From the NCBI RefSeq assembly GCF_006345805.1, contig NC_042999.1, positions 47,368,001-47,432,000 of the forward strand: a stretch of DNA of 64,000 bases, written 5' to 3'. The translations under genes were made by a program, and so were the position numbers. Position 1 is the first letter of the stretch; each line of letters opens with the position of its first letter. Below are positions 18,250 to 41,766 of the stretch, piece after piece. The DNA is from Octopus sinensis (lineage: Eukaryota). Under the pieces are notes generated by a model. It saw only the letters and a list, made by a program, of their open reading frames with translations. It did not search any database and was not told the DNA's origin.

Positions 18250-19884
18250 CACAGGCAGGTAAATACAAATCGAAAAGGTGTTGGTAGAGACGACCACCAG
18301 CACTTGGAGACTGTCCACAATGCTGCTGGTTTCGATCCCGTTTTCAGAGACTGGCACGCTGCATTATACAGCAGCATCTGTTCAGTGGTCAAAGTAAATG
18401 GCCACCTCTCGGAATCGTTTAGTATCGCATGTTTCCTCCAACAAGGCTGCCCAATCTTACCCCTTCTCTAATTACTGCGGAAGCTGGATCTTTCGATGGA
18501 CATCCAACATGAACTGGGATGCGGAAGGTACGTGTCAGCGTATACGATCAACGTCAACGTGATATTATCGGACATCTGAAAATCGAGATCATCGGCATTA
18601 CCCTAAGGGAATACAAAGCAGTGATTGGAGCAATGTTCAACCAGGAGAAGTCAGTAGACCTGCAGCTCGACACCTGGAGAGGTAAGCACATGCCAATCGA
18701 CAGCGTGGTGGGGTGTTGGTCGGAAAGACATGTTAAGTCGCTAGGGGTCTGGTTCGGTCAGGATTTCCAAATGGAGAAGAACTGGGGCGAGGTGACAGAC
18801 AGGATGTCCAGTCTCACCCAGAAATGGGCCGAAAGGAATCTGTTCCTGAAAAGTCGGGTGAATGTTGGGAATGCGTGCATTGCATCCATCATATACTATT
18901 GCCTTACTGTCGTCCCTTGCCCCGTTTCGTGTCTGTACGGGTTGGTGCGTTTGCTCTTCCGCTTTGTTTGGAAAGGACAAGTACCGCTTGTCAGATGATC
19001 CTCTGCTCTCAGCACCTGTTGCGTGGGTAACTGGTTATGCCGTGGCTGAGGATACGCAGACATGGGCTGAAGCTGTGACATCTCCAGTGATACCTTGGTG
19101 AGTAGGTGAGGCTGCCGTTTGTTGAAAGCTCTTTTGCGCAGCTCATCTCCTTGCCGGAGCTACAAAGCTGCATCAGACGTAGACCGAAGCGCTGTCTGTT
19201 TTACATAAGCTCTACAAGCACACATATGCAGTCAATCGGGCTTGTCCGAGATGCAAGTGGAGCGACGAAAACGTTCTGCATACTCTCGTTGAGTGTCTGC
19301 GCATTGCTGACTTGTGGAGCTTTGTCGAACAGATATTGACACGTGTAGGAAGGATCCAGCAATCGTCCAAGTGAAGATTGCCCCGCCTACTTCCTTTAGC
19401 CGGGAAGGGATGTCAATTTTTCTATGCCTGGTGGTTATGGCAAAAATATGTTGTGGGGTTCACACAGTTTAAAGGGTTGAAGACAGGAACCTTACTCTTT
19501 GGTCAAGGGCTCATTGACTTTTTCAAGTTCTACTTGAGAAAGGTAAGTAAGGCTGGAGAGGGAGGTAAGTCACCCAGTAATTTCGTAGCAAAGTGGGTAA
19601 ATATGACAAGAACGGCCCGCGTGGAGGGGCCTGCTTTACGTAGGCCAGGTGGAAGGGAGGAGAGATGGTGCCTTCCTCAGGAGCAGTTGGTGTTTAGGGG
19701 TCCAAAATGCGTGAGGTTTCTTTCGGCAACTTACAATTTGAACAACCCCTGTTAGGGAAGCAACTTCTGATTTAATCTCTTTGTTAATCGTTGTGTTTGT
19801 TGGCTGTTTACACGTTAACCTCACTGTCCCTCGTCTGTATACCGTCCTATATGTTTGGTGTTCGGCTCTAGAGGTTAATAAAGA

Positions 19885-31170: not shown

Positions 31171-32959
31171 TTTCATGTGATAGTCTGGCTTCCTCCTCCA
31201 AAACATTAGGCATTGTAGTTGTATTATTATCAACATTATGGAACGACAGGATGTCGTTACTGAAAACAAGGTGTTTAGTTGAACTGTTGTTAGGATTATG
31301 TTCCCAAGTTCGATTCTGGGACTGAGTAGCACATTGATTCTTTCAGTTTCATGTCCTTTGCTATTGCCTTCTTAGATCAACAGGAGTGCTGGTTGCATCT
31401 TTGGGTTAATTTGTGATAATTTTCTTCGGTATACTTGTACACTGTCACCTAAACATTAATTCAACTTATATTAAATCGCGCGCGTTTACAATCTGGTGGT
31501 AGATTTAGAAATTACCCAAGCGTCAATGTTGTTAACCAGTATTACGTTGTGGCTAAGGTGCCTCCTTGTTGATTTTGAGTTCGAGCTTCTGAAATCGTTC
31601 AACAATTAAATATCCGTTCATTATTTTCTGTGGTGTAACAGAAAGTTTAAGTGAGAGTTTATTCACAGTTATGAGGACATGGATTAAGTTTTTGGTAATT
31701 TAGGCGGGAAAAGTGTGAAAGCCGAAGACAAATTGAGAGAGATAGTAAAACCCTTGGTAGTCTTTCAGTATGTGTCATCGTAAGCTAGATTTTATGTATT
31801 TTATATATTTTATTTATTCTGATTTCATACAGGAAGTTATTTATTCGACAATTTACAAAGATGTTCAATTAACCAAAATATTTTCATAATGATCACATAG
31901 TTCCTAATTGATTAATGTTATTCTGTTTTCAGCGGTGTGATTTCTGGTAATTTAGCTTGACTTTCAGCTAACGATGAATACTTGAGAAAATCGTATATTC
32001 TCAATTTTACTTTATAAGATAGGGTTTCTTGCTCAGCCTGTTTAATTTCTATAGAATTTACCAGTTCACTTGAAAACTGTAGAGTGTCGGATAAATTCAA
32101 TGGAAGGCATAATAAATATATTGAAAAGCGAGGAATGAATAGATATATTCAGTATTAGACTGTCAGACAGATAGATTTATGCGTGTAGGTCAGGCCATGC
32201 ACAATACAATGGGGAGTATCAAATATAGAGAATATGGAGAGCGTGCAAAAATGCAATAATAACGGTAACCAAACTCCATTATCGTTGATTTGTCATCCAG
32301 AACGTACACGGTTATTGTAGACCATGTGGTAAGGAAAAATTATAAATAGAAAAATGTATATGAAACTGAATAATACAAATTTCGTTCATTATACAGTTTA
32401 AAGTATGCAGATTTCTGCTATGAATAATAACCTCTTGATCTGTTGATATCAGAATTCCTTGGAGTTTCAGTGTCGAAAGTAAATAGAAGACGGTCGCCGA
32501 CCAGATATAATGCTAGTCACAAAATGGCTAGACACATAAAGATATGGAATATTGCTCTATTTGCTACGTTATAATTGCGAAACATGAAATAATAGTAAAA
32601 TAGAAGTAAAGTAATCATAACTTTATTAGTATAGAGACAAATATCCCAATCCCCATAAAATATTTTAAAATACTTTATACATCTGATGATTGCCCCTCTA
32701 TTTGCAGTGGCTAATTAGCATACGTAAAATCAATAGTATGATAACAGCGCTGTGTAAGTTTCCACAATATAAGGAAGATAAATCACGACATTATAGCACG
32801 AGTATGGCACTGCAGACTTAATACGAAAAGATACTTACAAAGATAATAATTGTTCGTAATTTCAATAACGGTAAAAAGTTAATGATAGAAATATATTAAA
32901 ATCAATAACAGTAAATAAGGAGGATACATTTTATAATCAAACTTCGCTAAGGTTTAGAA

Positions 32960-33120
32960 CTTGCAAAATCATTAGCACGCTGGACGAAACGCATAGCGGT
33001 ATTTTGCCTGTCGCTAACTTCTGAGTTCAAGTTCCGCCGAGTTTGACTTTGCCTCCTCAATCTTTCGGGGTCAATATATTAAGTAACAGTGGGGTCGATG
33101 TAATGGACTACTCTGCACCC
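32960..33120 (+). mobile_element. tRNA-derived SINE family B, uninterrupted (empty-site copy)
   Basis: TGCAAAATCATTAGCACGC...TAGCGGTATTTTGCC...GAGTTCAAGTTCCGCCGAG..GACTTTGCC. The A box to B box interval is continuous. Confidence 0.8.
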
Positions 33121-33236: not shown

Positions 33237-34110
33237 GGATCTTTTCGGTTTGAACGACAGTTTTTAACATAATTTCTAGGTAACAAAAACATTTTAAACT
33301 TCGTATACTGGTAGAACGTGTTTATAAAACATTTTTTCTATTGGTTTTATTAAGAAAATTCTATAGTTTATAAGATATAAAACAAATTCTCGCTATAAAC
33401 ACACCAAGGCATTTTGCAATGAGCCCTAGCGAGACTGATGGATGCATGCATTTTGAATTAGTTATCTCTTCTTCTGTATCAGACCCTGGGAGTGTTAGCT
33501 GCAACGGAATGTCTTGAGATAGAAGCCTTCTAACTGACTTGGTGTGTTTACAGCATATTATATTACTACGAGTAATTTCCTTCATGACAAAATGCAATAA
33601 ATTATTTTCTTACAGGTTCGAATATGCCGCAAGCATATTTCAAATGACGACAAGTATATCTTATATTCATATAATTTGCTAGATACTTCGGATCCTTTCG
33701 GTTTGAACGGCAGTTTTTAACATAATTTCTAGGTAACTAAACATTTTTAAAATTCGTATACTGGTAGAATGTGTTTATAAAACATCTTTGTCTCTTGGCT
33801 TTATTAACAAAATTCTATAGTTTGTAAGATATTTGTTGTTCTTTTCTTCAATTTCTGCAATTTCAACCAATCAATGATGTCCATTGAGGTAAACAGCATT
33901 CTGTGCCGTATGAATATATCCCTCGTTTAAGAAACAGATTGGGTTTATTTACATTTGTGAAGAAAAAAGATGCCCTTCCCCCCAACCCTAATCCTAACCC
34001 TAACCCTAAAATAGATTGAAATGCAATAGATCGATACTAGGGTCATAATTATGGGTGACAATTTCATATGACACCGCTAGAAAAAACTGCCGTTCAAACC
34101 GAAAAGATCC
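33237..34110. mobile_element. Composite non-autonomous DNA transposon with GG termini and 8-bp TSD (Merlin-like)
   Basis: TIR GGATCTTTTCGGTTTGAACG(A/G)CAGTTTTT and AAAAACTGCCGTTCAAACCGAAAAGATCC. Perfect TSD TGGTCATA at 33229-33236 and 34111-34118. A second left end starts at 33690. CCCTAA repeats at ~33980-34010. Confidence 0.85.
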
Positions 34111-34384
34111 TGGTCATATAACCACTAGAAAGAGAGTTACATATCGGGGCATATATTCAAGAAGAATGAAATAGTAAGACAAATGAATGCATGATTTTCC
34201 AAATGTACTCAAAGTAAGAAAGACGTTTCCCTTATGAACATAAATATGGGTGCCGGTAAGCCATAAATTTGATTTCATATAAAAATCTATCTATCTATAT
34301 ATATATATAACTGGGAACATACATACTGAAAAATAATAATAACAACAGCATTAATGCTAATAGTAATATGAATAATCCCTACCA

Positions 34385-34570
34385 CTAAATACATAACGCC
34401 TACAATTTTGGGAAAAGGGACTAGTCCATTACTTCAACTGAGGTATTTCACTCGAACTTAATTTTTCGAAACCGAAATGATGAAGGTCAAAATCGACCTT
34501 CATGGAATTTGAACTCAGAACGTAAAGACATATGAAATATCGTTTAGATTTTTACCCGGCGTGCAAATGA
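34385..34570 (-). mobile_element. Decayed SINE family B
   Basis: GGAATTTGAACTCAGAACGTAAAGAC and CCCGGCGTGCAAATGA are shared with the adjacent copies. Confidence 0.7.
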
Positions 34571-34654
34571 TTTAAAATTCCTTTGATAAAAATTTCAATT
34601 AAATATGACATTTGATCACTTGTTTTCTTTATTCCAAATTCAGACAAAACTTAA

Positions 34655-34920
34655 GGGACGACCTGATACTTATTTAATCTACCCCGAAACGATGAAAGGC
34701 AAAGTCGACCTCGGCGGAATTTGAACTCAGAACGTAGCGCCAGGCGACATACCTATTTCTTTACTACCCACATGCGGCTAAACACAGAGAGGTCAAACAA
34801 GGACAGACAAACGGATTAAATCGATTAAATCGACCCCAGTGCGGAATTTGAACTCAGAATGTAATGGCAGACGAAATACGGCTACGCATTTCGCCCGGCG
34901 TGCTAACGATTCTACTAGTA
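34655..34920 (-). mobile_element. Nested SINE family B: a tailed copy (from 34754) abutting a host copy at the GAAATACC site
   Basis: The SINE sequence stops at GACATACC (34753). Next comes TATTTCTTTACTACCC...GCTAAACACAGAG (reverse 3' tail), then SINE sequence again, continuing through a complete head. Confidence 0.75.
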
Positions 34921-35019
34921 CTCAGCCCCAATAAAAATGATCAAAATAGTGATGACGTAAACAAATCTGTAATAGTTAATATTCTGTTATATAGTGAATA
35001 AATAAAAAGTAAATTTGTA

Positions 35020-35187
35020 CTTTTCTACTTTACGCAGAAGGCACTAAACTTTTTGGGATGATGCCAGTCTATTAGACCGACCCCAGTACGCAATTGGTAC
35101 TTACTTTATCGACCCCGATTGGTGGAGGAAAAGCAAAATCGAGCCTGGCGGAATTTGAACCCAGAACGTAGTGGCAGACGAAATACC
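35020..35187 (-). mobile_element. SINE family B, 3' part (5' head resumes at 40168-40220 after the Tx1 insertion)
   Basis: GGCGGAATTTGAACCCAGAACGTAGTGGCAGACGAAATACC at the left junction joins GCTAAGTGTTTCGCCCGGCGTGCTAAC at 40181. Confidence 0.85.
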
Positions 35188-35419
35188 AATTTCTTTATTG
35201 CACACTGGGGGCTAAACTCAGAAATGGATAGAACAACTGATGGGATAAGTAATGCGATATCGTTTTAAATATAGTGTAACTTTAAAAATTCAATAAAATA
35301 TTTTTAAAAATCGAATGAAATTAACAATACAGAGACGATACAAATGAGACGATGAACAAGCCACGCCCCGACCCCACAAGCCCTGATCTATGAATGGTAC
35401 CATTTTTGTTCTCTTTTCC

Positions 35420-38400
35420 TATTCACACGGCTCCCTGAATGTACACCACTCGTGCAACACGCTTCCATCTCTTTTGGAACGTACACTTCGACAGACATCT
35501 CTTCTCCAGCCACACCTTACTTTCCAAATGAAAAGTAAAAAAATGATCGTAAATTGTGGCCAGAGATAAAGTTGCCTGTCTTAATCCCTTTTATCCTAGT
35601 CGTCCATACTGCCTCTTTCACTATTGATACAACCGTGAGAAAAAATTCTTACCTTCGTTTGTTAAAACTCCCAGTGGGTCAAGTTTTATAATTGACTCAG
35701 TCGACAGCTGTACTCTTCCTTCGCCAGACAACACGTAGTCAGCATAAGCCCACATTTCAGAAACAGGCGAGGCACCTCTGTAGCATTGCCATGCTAAGGA
35801 CTTTTGGAAATTGTCCAACCTTCTCAACCCGAATGTATGGTGAAATAAGCTGTCTACTTGAATAAACCCGAGACCTATAGCCGCCCCTAGACCATCGTCG
35901 CATTCCGACACTACCAACCCACTATATAAAATCTGTGTAGAATCCCCACCGCTAGCGTTGCCGGAGCACCGGAATAGTAAGAGGGCCTTGCGGCACTCTT
36001 TATGCCATTCACTCGACTTCGATCTGCGAGAACACCAGGCTCCCTATTCACAAAAGCATTTGAAGTCTAAGAACATTTGTCTGGCCAGCGGAGACCACAC
36101 CCGTTCACTATCCAGGAGAATCCAGGTGTGCCTTAACCTCAACGCATGCCTGCGCATCATTAACCAAGGCATCCCTAAACCTCCCTTTAAAAGCTTTTGA
36201 CCGCAGACAGCGTTTCACTAGTGGCGGCTTGCCCTTCTACAAAAAGCGAAAGAGCTGTCTCTTCAACCTGATCAACCAAGAATCCGGACAGAGCACAACA
36301 GCTAGGCTGTAGGTAATGACCGATGTGATAAACACATTGGCCACCTCCTCCCTCCCTTTCAGGGATAGCCACCGCCAAGACCAATACTTGACTACTGCAG
36401 CCACCCTGCTCAATACCTCCGTCAAGGCTTCTCTATCTGGAGGCCTAGTCCAAACCAAACTCCCAGCAACTTAACCGGTCATTCCGTCCAGCGCTCAACA
36501 ACGCAGTCTGAAGGCATCGACTTGGCAACCCAAGTGCCGAGCTGCAAGCCGACCGACTTTTCCCGGTTAATCTTTGCTTCTGCCACCTCCTCATAAGCCT
36601 CAATCATCTTACCCACTTCATGTAGTCGTGCTACCTAGGTTACGCTGATAGTGATATCATCCACGTAAGCCATAACAAACTCCTCTAGACCTGGTTCTCT
36701 CGGGATGCCACTCAAGCTTCGCAGTTGGGGCTAGAGAGCTACCAAATACAAAAGTGGTGAGAGCGGACATCCTTGACGAACCGACCATCTGATGCAGAAC
36801 GGCTTCCAAAGGAAACCGTTCAGCCGAACAATTGAGTCGATGTTTTGGTACAAAGCGATAAACTACCTGAAGAAGCCAACGCCCGGGCCAAACAACGCAA
36901 GTACAGTAACAAGGTATCGATGGTCAACCCTACCCAAAGCTTTAGATTGTTCCAAATGTACCAATGCCCCACCTTTGCGAGATTTATTACCAACCCTCTC
37001 TATGGCATATCGGATACGGTGGAAATTATCCTGATTGGTTCTGCCTGGGATGGCACATGTCTGTGCCTCCCCGACCATACCATTCGCGACACACACCAAA
37101 GTTTTTGCTAAGACCTTGGCCAAAATCTTCACTTCTGCGTTTAACAGAGTGATGGGCCTGAAATTCTCTCTAATGTCCCCCTTGTCCGGGTCCTTTCTGA
37201 CCAACGTCACTACTCCCCGGCGCACAGATCTGGTGATAAGCCAATTATGTTGTCAGTTTGCGTACACGTCAGCCAGTAGATGCCCGAACAAGTCTGGCAT
37301 ACATTTATACAGCTCGTACGGAAGACCATCAAGTCCCGTTTTACATTCGGCCAAAGCCTCCATTAATTCCACAGGCGTGATTGTCCCTTAAGACTCCGCA
37401 TCCGACACCGAGAGGCACGGCAGCCCGACAAGAAATTACTCGAGGGCTCTCCCAACATCAAGGCCGCCGCCACCCCCGACCAGCTGAGCGAAATACTCCC
37501 GAAAGGCTTCACACATTTTCTCAGGTTCGTTTACTAAGACACTATTTTCATTCATAAAAGTCCGAGTAGTGGAACTATTTCCTTGACGAGCTTCCACCAC
37601 TCGGGCCTATCCAGCGGCCTTGATTCCTTCAATTTCCATGACAAGTAACTAGGTTCTCGAAATACTTCCCATGTGTTGGGCTTCAATATGCTGGTTTAAC
37701 TCCAGACTTTTCCCTCTCGCTTGGTCCGCATTACCAGTCCTCCAGGCTTCTTCTAGTTCCTTAACTAAACCATCTTCTATTCTATGACCCTTCTTAGCTA
37801 AACGTACGCTAAACATAATAGACTCATATTTGATGGCTCTTTTTAGGGCGTACCACCATTTGTTATTAATGATGGTACCTGTTAATGCCCTCTGTATTAA
37901 CATCTTGATCCGATTTCTGTACTCCTCAATCGCCAAAAGGGACATATTGATTTTCCAGTAGCCAGATGCCTGCAACCAATCTACTGTCAGTTTACAGGTA
38001 AGCACCTTGAGGTTAATGCAACTGACTAGAAAAAATTATGGACACTTGGCTATGGACTTATCTGTTTCTCTAAGTAAAATCCTCTCTAGATATGTTCTAG
38101 AAGACCCGTCACTATTTGACCACGTCCGCTGTGGAGTGTTCGGGTGTTCCAACCTATATGGATCAGCTAGCTGAAAGTGACGTAGCAGATCCCGTAAGCC
38201 CGGGTTACATTTTCTGTCCATGTTCGAGCCAACACAATCTGTGTGTGCGTCACATATTGTGTTAAAGTCTCCTATCAATACTAGCGAATGTGGCGTGGCC
38301 AAGAACTTGCCCAGATCACGAAAATATTCACTTTGCGGACCCATAAATAGCGACTAGCCAGAGTATCATGCCACAACAGAATGTCAGGTCAAGAACGACC

Positions 38401-38670
38401 AACCTGCCTTCTGTGTCAGAAAAAAACAACTTTTTCTCGGCTACCCAGTTTCTTTTTAGTAGGACCAATACCCCACCCCATCTCCCACTCGACTCGGAGA
38501 AACGTATTTCTCATAGTCGTTCAAGAGGGGGAGCAGATCTTGGCCCCTTTATCCGGGTTTCTCTTACAACAATCACATCCAATTTTCTTGACCAGATGTC
38601 ATTTAGGAAGCGACCTTGCTTCCAGCTAGACATCAGGTCACGAACATTTACACAACTAATGTGAATAGAC
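35420..38670 (-). pseudogene. Tx1 ORF2 (APE endonuclease + reverse transcriptase), many stops and frameshifts
   Basis: APE motifs VNVRDL, LIGDFN, TWSNSDGSSRTYLERI and GYWKINMSLL. RT motifs ENFRPITLLNAEVKILAKVLA, VRQGCPLSPLLY and AYVDD. Downstream WSWRWLSLKGR. Confidence 0.88.
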
Positions 38671-38849
38671 ATAACTTACCTGTTTATCTGGGGTGTCCAG
38701 TGGAAAAAGACACTCCACCTTTTCTTGACACAGGGTCAAAAGTGGCACGTTTTTGAAAATAGATTGATTAAAATCCAGTCTTATTACCGATACGTACTTT
38801 CTATAAGTATTTAATAAAATATTATGAGTCTGCTTATCCATTTCATATT

Positions 38850-39923
38850 GTTCCTAATTTTTATATTTGTCCGAAAGTCCTGCTATCCTGGTGGCTGATT
38901 TTTTGTTTTTATCTCTCTCATGAAATCATCATTTTTGTTATGTAGTGTCACAATCCCTCTCTCCGCTACTTCTTTCTTTGATATTTTTGGTTGGACACTT
39001 TTTGCTGTCGTGGTTCTTCTGGTTTTGGTTGGTTTTCATTTTTCATTTTTCTTTTGCTAGTAACATTCTTTTCTTCTGTTTGTTTTTCCTTCTCTTCCTC
39101 TTCATCTTCAGATTCCTCCTCGCCTTCCTTACAGTATTTTTTTATATGGCCCACATGGCCATACTGAAAACATTGGGGTTTACGACCCTCGACAAAAACG
39201 TTGAGGAACTCCTCCCCAACTTCTGTTTTTTTTCTGGAAGCTGTTCAAATACAGCCTGTTCTGTTTGAACAGGTGGACCGTGTGGCCGGTTCAATTTGCC
39301 TTTTCTGAAACGGTAGCCTGAAGTATTGTTACCTCATCTACTGTTTTTGCCAGAACTGGTGCCATCAACCACATAGGATCGACTTGAGGTGGAACCTTTG
39401 GTATTCGTATTTTGGATGTCCTCATACCCATGTATATTGGCATTCAAATCACGTCTTCTGTTTCCCAGGATTTTACCTTGTGCAATTGTGCAGTTTCAAT
39501 CTTTTTTAGGCGTACCTCGATGGTATCAAACTTTTTTCCTCTGGCTAGATATGTTATATCCTGTGCGTTAAACATTTTTCTACCTTCTCGCTTACTCGCT
39601 CGATTTTTCTTTCTTATGGGTTGTATGTTTTAAATGTAATTGCTTTTTTACTTCTCTGTCAATAAAAGCTTTTCTGGGGGTTGAACCTTGACAAAGCCGT
39701 CTTGAATTATTATCATGTCCTTTTAGATTAAATCGTCACTTTTCTTCGTCGACAGTTGGCGAGTTCTATCTCCAGCTGCAGACACAAAACTTTTTTTCTG
39801 TTTACCCTCCTCCGCTTCAAGTCCTTTCACTTCGACAGTCTTCCTTGCAACGGCAGTCCTCGAAAGTTGTGGGAATTCGCTCTCAGAAGAATCCGAAAAA
39901 TCTTCCAATAATACTTTTTCCAC
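38850..39923 (-). pseudogene. Tx1 ORF1 (gag-like, zinc knuckle), disrupted
   Basis: Degenerate CCHC knuckle CFQYGHVGHIKKYC near 39130-39175 followed by an acidic/basic low-complexity tail. Lies upstream of the APE domain. Confidence 0.7.
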
Positions 39924-41766
39924 TTTTTGGGTCAGATTTAGAAATCTGTCAAATCCTCGTCAGATGAATACAGACTTTTTGGCATCTTGCCAGCAATTAG
40001 CTTGCCCCCTACATGGAAAAACACACAATAGTTTTCGAACAAAAACTATTATACAAATTCTAACAGAAACAGCAAATATAACAAGTAACAACACGGAACC
40101 AGTCAACAGAAACTACACTTACCATACAGACGCACTTCGGCAACAATAACAACACTTCCAATTCAAACAAACGAAATCCCGCTAAGTGTTTCGCCCGGCG
40201 TGCTAACAATTTTACCAGCACGATCAAAATAGTGATGATGTTAACAAATCCTTAATAGTAACATTCTATTATATTGTGAATAAATAAAATAATAAATGTA
40301 TTGTGAAAGGATCTAGATGATGCATTCACCCTTAATGCTGTTGGTTTATTTTCTACCTTCAGAAATGACAATAAACATGAATACAAGAATGATTTCAAAT
40401 CGTAACTACATAATAATTATATTATTAAAATTTAATCGGCTTTCATTAATTATCTTGCTACGATAAAATTAATTTCATTTAGACACACACCGTATAAATA
40501 TCTAAAGATTTTGTCATAAATATTGTACTGACGATAATATATAACAAGTTTATAAAGGTTGATCCAACAACTATCTCTAACCATTTGGGTCATGGCTTAA
40601 ACAAAATACTCACAGATTATGAAGGATTCCCGGAAAATTGCCCAAAGAATATTCTGGGATAGATTGTGACTTCTTGGAAAGCTATTGGTATGAATAGGTG
40701 TTTTTCTTGTTGACTGGTTACACTGCACAAACGCATAATATATCTATTCCAAGAAAAAAAAGAAAAAAACAACGAACCTGCATCGAATATGAACTAATAG
40801 TTCAATATGTTATCCCATCGGTACTTCATAATTTTTTCTTGAAATACTTTTATGGGTAAATTAAATAAGTCGGTGTTCTAAATTGATATCATGATACTTG
40901 TAGAGTTAGTAATCTAATGTTTGCATCAGTTCTGCTTTCAGTATTAGGTCGGATCTAATATCTAACTGCAAATACATAATATGCATAGAATCTGTATTAA
41001 ATTGAAAAGTTTACTTAAATGAAATTAACGATTTCTGTTATTAGCATGTGTCTGAAGCGAATAATGTCGTTAGACACTTAAGCTTGCAAAGATTATCTGC
41101 TACGCAGTTGATGAGCCGTTGCAACTAACAGAAAGTGTTCATTCGAATTTTGATGCATGTTATTTATTCTGTCGGTAGTGATTATCATGACTGCAGAGAA
41201 TATTCGTTAAATCTTTAATTGCTATCGGTCCGAATATTTAATTCATAGGGTGGAATCGCACTTCTAAAAAGCTATTCACGTGTCGAGTTACTAGTCCTCG
41301 GTTAATGAGGCTACTTCTTACATTTATAAATATGCAACTCTGATACGCAAATAGCTGGATTTCTTATGCACTTTCTCAAGTGACAATATAAAGAAAAATT
41401 TCTGGTACTTGTAATAATCTGTAGCTTTCAGATTTTTTTTTAATACTCTTTTACTTCACAACATGGATAGCGGCAGTTTATTTTGGATTTGATTCACTCA
41501 GAATCTTGTACGAAGCGCCTCTTTCAGAATTGTTTTTTAAACAATAGACAAAGACAAATATACATATAATTCTGATGTGTGTAGAATACATGTATGTTTC
41601 AAGAGCAATTGCGTATAACATCTGATGATTTGGACAAGATTAACACATATTTTAGATAAAATATATACATCAATCGAATTTGTTTGTGATCAGTATCCTT
41701 GCAGATGGATATTTCTGTACATTATTTTCATTTGACGGATATTTGTCCTCATCTTGTTTGTTGTTG

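What the first reader, a model, noticed from the sequence alone, without database searches (positions are those of the whole stretch)
34655..40220. A Tx1 LINE and a tail-sharing SINE both sit at the same nucleotide inside a SINE's tRNA head
Seen: two neighbouring family-B SINE copies are broken at the same position, (GAC)GAAATACC|, between the A and B boxes. At 35187 the insert is a ~5-kb Tx1 element with an imperfect 13-bp TSD, and the SINE resumes at 40181. At 34753 the abutting sequence is a tailed copy of the SINE itself. The copy at 32960-33120 shows the uninterrupted site. Established: several Tx1-clade families (Tx1L, Keno, Dewa, Mutsu) are sequence-specific for multicopy targets such as snRNA, tRNA or 5S genes and transposons. 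Inference: this is a Tx1 family that targets an abundant SINE, and the SINE uses the LINE's machinery to insert into its own family, so the passenger multiplies the target. Only two junctions support this here, and I cannot confirm it is undescribed.
Basis: partly seen in the sequence, partly recalled or inferred. Interest (0 to 1): 0.8.

Follow-up and report, generated by a model that had tools for sequence, protein, structure and literature searches.

The report
LINE family inserts inside its passenger
A family of L1/Tx1-type retrotransposons in this genome sits almost only at one exact nucleotide inside an abundant short repeat (a SINE), and a SINE that shares its tail, and is likely copied by such enzymes, sits at that same nucleotide tens of thousands of times, so the passenger would keep making new landing sites for its driver.

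Summary
Confirmed, and larger than the window shows. The 5-kb element (35188-40180, minus strand) is a decayed APE-RT-zinc-finger LINE inside a tRNA-like SINE head. The first 30 of 146 exact LINE 3' ends all abut that nucleotide (site 1), as do 27 of the 30 best relatives. In a young subfamily (28 near-full copies, 4 with an open ORF2), LINE bodies differ by about 1% but their SINE flanks by 11-13%, and target subtype does not follow the LINE tree. These are independent insertions, not one composite repeat. The tail-sharing SINE is less strict: 33 of 98 sampled tails, and 28,582 of 132,833 exact tails, abut site 1, as headless 184-186 bp units. Some lie inside SINEs with other tails (true targeting); others share private variants (multimer copying or tandem duplication). 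A sister LINE copy, ORF1-only elements and a second SINE tail variant use a second site in the A box. Closest precedent: crocodilian Tx1-Mar/SINEU, whose target is a third element. No description found in ten searches; Repbase could not be searched. Tx1 placement by phylogeny and the SINE's actual driver are untested.

The parts
40181..40222 (-). 5' half of the target SINE head (A-box side), ending at site 1
40168..40180 (-). 13-nt copy of the target site at the LINE 5' end (11 of 13 match to 35175-35187); TSD-like, likely partly a LINE-carried leader
35188..40180 (-). decayed L1/Tx1-type LINE, about 5.0 kb, older subfamily; 87% identical over 3.1 kb to the young intact subfamily
38668..39920 (-). 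ORF1 remnant in three pieces (41-68% identity to the ORF1 of locus L184)
35426..38672 (-). ORF2 remnant (APE, RT, zinc finger), broken by frameshifts and stops
35188..35237 (-). LINE 3' tail shared with the type-A SINE (35 of 52 aligned positions with the window SINE tail); no poly(A)
35020..35187 (-). 3' half of the target SINE: site 1, B box, body, type-B tail
34940..35014 (-). 76-bp flank duplicated at 40223-40297 (87%); local duplication or long TSD of the type-B SINE
34754..34921 (-). whole type-A (tail-sharing) SINE with a C-type head and an internal deletion after the B box
34663..34753 (-). headless second SINE unit starting at site 1, cut off before its tail
34456..34572 (-). older diverged copy of the same SINE superfamily
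32956..33120 (+). SINE copy with the site unbroken (32997/32998)

Best explanation
A LINE family sits at one nucleotide in the head shared by three abundant SINE families, likely because its APE endonuclease nicks there and primes reverse transcription, and the SINE family that carries a LINE-like tail is likely mobilised by this LINE lineage into the same site, which would add new sites. Shown: site fidelity, independent events, 14-17 nt duplications, a shared tail, headless SINE units, and a second site used by sister elements. Inferred: the bottom strand is nicked at the site and the top strand about 15 nt downstream; full-length LINE RNA starts with a short target-like leader whose cDNA anneals to the overhang; SINE cDNA, homologous along the whole head, anneals the same way, so the new unit borrows the target's head and a head + (unit)n array results. 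Each added unit carries a fresh site. Arrays then also grow by copying of read-through multimers or by tandem duplication.
For: LINE ends at site 1: 30 of the first 30 of 146 exact ends and 27 of the 30 best relatives, the window copy included; two loci are in both sets, so 55 of 58 distinct loci. Independence: 28 young copies differ by 0.95% (mean) while 3' flanks differ by 11.4% and 5' heads by 12.6%; the C/G target subtype agrees on both sides in 28 of 28 (one needs a 1-nt shift) and is unclustered on the tree (8 changes, shuffled mean 8.4). Truncated copies have their own duplications, including one off target (L005, L017). Older copies hit all three SINE tail types (B 12, A 8, C 3, unclassified 4 of 27). 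Leader: 19 of 28 5' copies differ from the 3' copy within 16 nt, and one 5'-only variant recurs in 3 copies in both target subtypes. SINE: 33 of 98 tails at site 1 in 1.2 Mb; 7 of 72 terminal junctions lie in non-A or unclassified SINEs, about 80-fold over a motif-only expectation; 8 of 26 further arrays end in a type-B unit; none of 48 arrays shows two heads; monomers at unique sites have clear duplications, mostly 12-19 nt. LINEs also sit at internal array junctions (L194, L201). Protein domains.
Against: No LINE with a tail identical to the SINE's was found: 35-40 of 52 positions for the site-1 LINEs, 34-37 for microsatellite-targeting sisters, 42-44 for a site-2 ORF1-only element, so the driver is not identified. 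The young LINE hits C-type sites in 18 of 30 cases, but SINE tails precede a C-type site only 293 times against 28,582, so the young LINE is probably not making most SINE junctions. 26 of 33 sampled site-1 junctions lead into another type-A unit, and several arrays share private variants and have one duplication around the whole array (L137 with 10 tails, L213), which fits multimer copying or tandem duplication. Terminal units are only weakly older than upstream ones (4.6% vs 3.7%, n 15 and 24, p 0.07). Only 1 of 28 young LINEs is at a headless junction, though 35 of 195 sampled sites are of that kind, so added units are poorer targets than headed ones. No biochemistry.
Confidence: 0.8

Rival explanations
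1. The LINE targets the SINE, but SINE arrays come mostly from read-through multimer transcripts and DNA-level tandem duplication of a few founder dimers; SINE self-targeting is minor.
For: 26 of 33 junctions are A-into-A; shared private variants and one duplication around whole arrays; C-type heads are always followed by G-type units in the arrays seen, and tail + C-type site is 1% of tail + G-type site.
Against: Arrays ending in type-B or C units cannot come from transcripts that must end in an A tail: 6 of 22 and 8 of 26. Terminal units belong to several subtypes. The two processes are not exclusive; this probably accounts for a good part of the A-A junctions.
Confidence: 0.4
2. Specificity is set mainly by RNA-DNA pairing: elements transcribed from inside a SINE carry target-like sequence at both ends, which pairs with a target nicked by a relaxed endonuclease.
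For: LINE 5' leader (also in site-2 elements). SINE tail variants switch site: among the first 100 listed, 2 of 100 site-1 junctions but 88 of 100 site-2 junctions have the C tail variant (counted by eye), and off-target flanks begin with the first letters of the matching site.
Against: The first base of the LINE's 3' flank follows the target, not the LINE tree, so it is not copied from RNA. A separate ORF2-bearing element and ORF1-only elements sit at site 2, so two enzymes can explain the two sites. Sister families sit in (TATC)n and (TTA)n, as expected for endonuclease-set targets.
Confidence: 0.25
3. One ancient LINE-in-SINE composite was spread as a fixed unit.
For: In the window the two SINE copies share a duplicated flank.
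Against: Flanks are about ten times more diverged than the LINEs they hold, subtype is unclustered, truncated copies have their own duplications, and targets have three tail types.
Confidence: 0.02

Closest known systems
Tx1-Mar LINEs and SINEU of crocodilians (Kojima 2015, PMC4494074; parts 1-4 of 5 of the text read, supplements not seen)
   Same: A Tx1 lineage and the SINEs it is thought to mobilise share target positions inside an abundant repeat; two preferred positions are used by different Tx1 and SINE families; tandem SINE insertions occur; relatives target microsatellites.
   Different: There the target is a third element (Mariner-N4_AMi, a DNA transposon) and the SINEs show no LINE-like tail. 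Here the target is the head of the SINE superfamily itself, the passenger shares a tail with the LINEs, fidelity of the LINE is to one nucleotide, and self-insertions are headless.
Tx1L, Keno, Kibi, Koshi (as summarised in PMC4494074; Christensen 2000 and Kojima and Fujiwara 2004 not held); Dewa and Mutsu recalled
   Same: APE-type LINEs specific for multicopy targets; the microsatellite-flanked sisters here parallel Kibi and Koshi.
   Different: Listed targets are a piggyBac transposon, U2, U5, 5S, satellites, microsatellites, Mariner, Harbinger and LTR elements; a SINE is not among those in the text read.
R2/R1 site-specific LINEs (recalled; PMC3414825 seen as a search listing with abstract start only)
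   Same: Target-derived sequence at the RNA 5' end and homology-resolved 5' junctions are the likely model for the leader seen here.
   Different: R2 uses a restriction-like endonuclease and a host rDNA target; no ribozyme match was found here.
SINE-derived satellites of squamates (PMC10702118; passages)
   Same: Tandem arrays made of SINE parts; long arrays homogenise.
   Different: Explained there by recombination and repeated insertion at a locus; the passages seen name no site-specific LINE.
Octopus tRNA-derived SINEs OR1, OR2, OK (Ohshima and Okada 1994; seen only as cited in PMC4824008 and PMC4758252)
   Same: Recalled resemblance: several SINE families sharing a tRNA-like head and body with different tails; the host looks like an octopod.
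   Different: Identity not tested, no reference sequence available; the passages seen mention no targeting.
HAL1-type ORF1-only non-autonomous LINEs (name from PMC4494074 reference list; features recalled)
   Same: About 1.67-kb elements with ORF1 only and a LINE tail.
   Different: Here they stack in tandem at one site in a SINE head.

Membership tests
Tx1 clade LINE | ORF2 with APE endonuclease, RT and C-terminal zinc finger (shared with the L1 clade) | tested here: met
   Pfam PF03372, PF00078, PF13966 above cut-off on intact relative L184; best solved-structure match human L1 ORF2, E 2e-64
Tx1 clade LINE | ORF1 with a CCHC zinc knuckle (that this marks Tx1 is recalled) | tested here: met
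   PF00098, 22.9 bits, cut-off 20.8
Tx1 clade LINE | Target specificity for a multicopy sequence (Kojima's threshold: over 20% of flanks) | tested here: met
   55 of 58 distinct loci
Tx1 clade LINE | RT groups with named Tx1 families in a phylogeny | not testable with these tools
   27 homologues and the members of 10 clusters gave no Tx1 name; atlas names are generic
tRNA-derived SINE | tRNA-like head with A and B boxes | tested here: inconclusive
   Boxes recognised by eye against recalled consensus; ARAGORN and Rfam gave no match
tRNA-derived SINE | Short, non-coding, high copy, with TSDs and a LINE-like tail | tested here: met
   132,833 exact tails; duplications; tail alignment
tRNA-derived SINE | Transcribed by RNA polymerase III | not testable with these tools
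   No run on record as RNA
Tx1-Mar/SINEU-type pair | LINE and SINE share target positions | tested here: met
Tx1-Mar/SINEU-type pair | Target is a third, unrelated element; SINE head from U1/U2 | tested here: not met
   Target is the SINE superfamily's own head; no Rfam match
Octopus OR1/OR2 CORE-SINEs | Sequence identity to the published families and CORE domain | not tested
   No reference sequence from a tool; resemblance recalled

The most novel reading that the evidence does not exclude
A self-feeding retroelement community: the head of one SINE superfamily is the landing pad for at least two sister LINE lineages (two sites 33 nt apart), ORF1-only half-LINEs and the SINE itself; self-insertion rebuilds a complete A-box/B-box head from target plus insert and adds a new site, so passenger and driver expanded each other, and target choice is partly guided by target-like sequence carried in the RNA.
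Probability: 0.35. Interest if true: 0.85.

Novelty: new variant of a known kind. Interest (0 to 1): 0.72.

Why it matters
Site-specific retrotransposons usually live in a host gene family or a third repeat of fixed size. Here the target is the non-autonomous passenger family, so a parasite would supply the safe harbour of its own driver, a feedback that could help explain SINE abundance and SINE tandem arrays in this 2.7-Gb genome. Sister families with about 50-73% ORF2 identity and different targets (two SINE sites, two microsatellites), with young open copies, give a natural series for asking how APE endonucleases change specificity and how much RNA-DNA pairing adds. It also warns annotators that the 184-186 bp tandem repeat here is a SINE product.

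Tried and rejected
The repeat finder on the whole window was swamped by microsatellites. ARAGORN and Rfam found no tRNA or ribozyme at the SINE head or the LINE 5' end. A pattern meant to find a LINE with a SINE-identical tail gave 865 matches; the 100 listed look like mutated SINEs and the 6 loci fetched were not examined further. Expression: no RNA holder listed; four contig sets cover the LINE 5' part and two contigs bridge head and LINE, but they cannot show start, strand or level. An arms-race reading of the C-type head (escape from the old LINE: 0 of 27 old vs 18 of 30 young copies) was set aside because age explains it: C-type SINEs are about 3% from the column majority, old LINEs 12% apart pairwise. 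A required cruciform was set aside because two LINEs sit at headless junctions, although the head hairpin is kept (58 of 66 heads pair at the base pair closing the loop) and headed sites are preferred. The idea that the tail end mimics the target was dropped because sisters with other targets end alike. No earlier scan findings. The sample stayed at 1.2 Mb, taken at round-number coordinates of the 25 largest contigs, not truly random. Literature: ten searches gave no description; three papers were not held; Repbase Reports and subscription journals were not searched, and no supplements were read.

Full report
Observation. On the minus strand the window reads: SINE head (40181-40222), a 5.0-kb LINE (35188-40180), the rest of that SINE with a type-B tail (35020-35187), a duplicated 76-bp flank, a whole SINE ending in a LINE-like type-A tail (34754-34921), and a headless SINE unit (34663-34753). 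Both tails abut the same nucleotide between the A-box-like and B-box-like motifs, here called site 1. The copy at 32956-33120 shows the site unbroken. The window LINE is decayed; its pieces align along ORF1 and ORF2 of an intact relative, whose ORF2 has APE, RT and zinc-finger domains and whose ORF1 has a CCHC knuckle. No named Tx1 reference was reachable, so 'Tx1' rests on architecture and behaviour.

The LINE is site-specific. A search with the last 233 nt of the LINE gave 40 scored matches; of the 30 best, the window copy included, 27 abut site 1 and 3 do not. An exact 23-nt end occurs 146 times, 54 times followed by the G-type site start. The first 30 listed were all at site 1, 18 in C-type and 12 in G-type heads; the other 116 were not read. 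Two loci are in both sets. About 195 SINE bodies lie in 2.4 million strand positions of the sample, so chance is excluded.

The insertions are independent. Of 40 loci fetched at length, 28 hold a near-full copy of a young 5.35-kb subfamily and 4 have an open ORF2 of about 1,133 aa. LINE bodies differ by 0.95% on average, their 3' SINE flanks by 11.4% and 5' heads by 12.6%. The C/G subtype agrees on both sides in all 28 and is not clustered on the LINE tree (8 changes, shuffled mean 8.4, 241 of 500 as low; the tree is poorly resolved). Two truncated copies carry 16-nt duplications of their own targets, one of them off target. Older copies, about 12% apart, sit in SINEs of all three tail types. 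A fixed composite repeat is ruled out.

The 5' junction. In 19 of 28 young copies the 16 nt at the 5' side differ from the 3' flank; one variant found only at the 5' side recurs in three copies in both target subtypes, while one private target variant is duplicated (L181). The simplest reading, inferred, is that full-length RNA begins with a short target-like leader whose cDNA anneals to a top-strand overhang. The window's imperfect 13-bp duplication fits this.

The SINE. Three families (tails A, B, C) share head and body. The A tail resembles the LINE tails and lacks poly(A). Exact A tails number 132,833; 28,582 are followed by the G-type site, 293 by the C-type site and 2,539 by a second site in the A box. 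In 1.2 Mb taken at round-number coordinates, 98 tails were found: 33 at site 1, 6 at site 2, 5 in TA repeats and 54 elsewhere with a loose five-letter preference and clear duplications in many. Site-1 units repeat at 184-186 bp; none of 48 arrays shows a second head (22; 26 after dropping 4 overlapping loci). Six of 22 and 8 of 26 arrays end in a B or C unit, which needs a targeted insertion; several of these carry the C-type head, seen with tail A in 20 of 20 classified sample heads, so part of the head came from the incoming copy. Counting only terminal junctions, 7 of 72 lie in non-A or unclassified SINEs, roughly 80-fold over a motif-only expectation (denominators rough).

Results against a simple picture. 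26 of 33 site-1 junctions lead into another A unit. Some arrays share private variants and have one duplication around the whole array, one has ten tails; multimer copying or tandem duplication must contribute. Terminal units are only weakly older (p 0.07). SINE tails almost never precede a C-type site, which the young LINE uses often, so the young LINE is probably not the maker of most SINE junctions. Only 1 of 28 young LINEs, and one older copy, sit at headless junctions, fewer than their share of sites (p about 0.03 against all sites, 0.0003 against type-A sites), so added units are usable but poorer targets. No LINE with the SINE's exact tail was found.

A wider family. A distant homologue found many other open LINE copies (40 scored). 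Of 20 whose 3' ends were fetched, 13 run into TATC-type or TA-rich repeats, 3 into TTA repeats and 4 into other sequence; their ORF2 ends are 47-55% identical to the site-1 family, and the microsatellite-flanked ones have related tails. A pattern for non-SINE ends at site 2 gave 87 matches; 3 of the first 8 were not SINEs. Eight longer stretches showed one ORF2-bearing element (73% identical over 617 aa) ending at site 2, ORF1-only elements of about 1.67 kb stacked there in tandem, and a truncated copy with an 18-nt duplication. SINE tail variants split between the sites (2 of 100 vs 88 of 100 listed junctions with the C variant), and an ORF1-only site-2 element has the tail closest to the SINE's (42-44 of 52). 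Only one ORF2-bearing site-2 copy was seen, and only in part.

Mechanism. Most likely (0.8) endonuclease-directed target-primed reverse transcription at site 1 and site 2 by sister LINEs, trans-mobilisation of the A-tailed SINE through the shared tail, and homology-resolved 5' junctions that leave head + (unit)n arrays. The nicking, the trans-mobilisation and the annealing are inferred from junctions and from established LINE biology; none was measured.

Comparison and novelty. Kojima 2015 (PMC4494074, parts 1-4 of 5 read) describes Tx1-Mar and SINEU sharing two positions in a Mariner transposon; that is the closest case, but its target is a third element. An octopus repeat annotation (PMC13282606, parts 1-2 of 3) counts young L1-Tx1 families and says nothing on targets in the parts read. 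Passages of PMC3747384, PMC5911963, PMC4758252, PMC8869645, PMC4824008, PMC5753468, PMC10702118 and PMC8967140 did not show a LINE that targets a SINE head. Ten searches found none, but Repbase Reports, subscription journals and supplements were not seen, and a note there is quite possible (my estimate: about one in three). Verdict: real, a new variant of target-specific Tx1-like LINE/SINE pairs, interest 0.72.

Noticed in passing
L288, L291, L286, L292 (G000 C2:169359500-169366000 and others): A second site in the SINE's A box holds an ORF2-bearing sister LINE and ORF1-only elements of about 1.67 kb, up to four in tandem, each starting with a target-like leader.
   Followed up: partly
L257-L269, L274-L276: Several young sister LINE families with open ORF2 and related tails run into (TATC)n or (TTA)n microsatellites.
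   Followed up: partly
L270:680-1300: A LINE copy ends inside a tandem repeat of about 335 bp of unknown nature; L271-L273 end in other non-microsatellite sequence.
   Followed up: no
sample loci L031-L110, L211-L250: Type-B and type-C SINE tails are followed within 110 nt by another SINE head in 7 of 46 and 10 of 56 cases, hinting at a further preference just upstream of SINE heads.
   Followed up: partly
SINE head around site 1: Site 1 lies at the edge of a 4-nt loop on an 11-bp stem; the C-type subfamily changes both partners of the closing pair, and 58 of 66 heads keep a standard pair there.
   Followed up: partly
window 34940-35014 and 40223-40297: A 76-bp flank is duplicated on both sides of the type-B SINE that holds the LINE; possibly an unusually long target duplication.
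   Followed up: partly
window 18274-19629 (+): A fragment of another L1/Tx1-type ORF2, 32-47% identical to the site-1 family.
   Followed up: no
window 33238-33340, 33690-33830, 34085-34112: Repeated and inverted copies of one motif, like the ends of a small DNA transposon; a few CCCTAA-type repeats at 33985-34010.
   Followed up: no
L006, L008, L010, L012, L018, L025, L027: Many older LINE copies have large internal deletions yet keep both ends.
   Followed up: no
L137: A ten-tail SINE array with shared private variants, a small SINE-derived satellite.
   Followed up: partly
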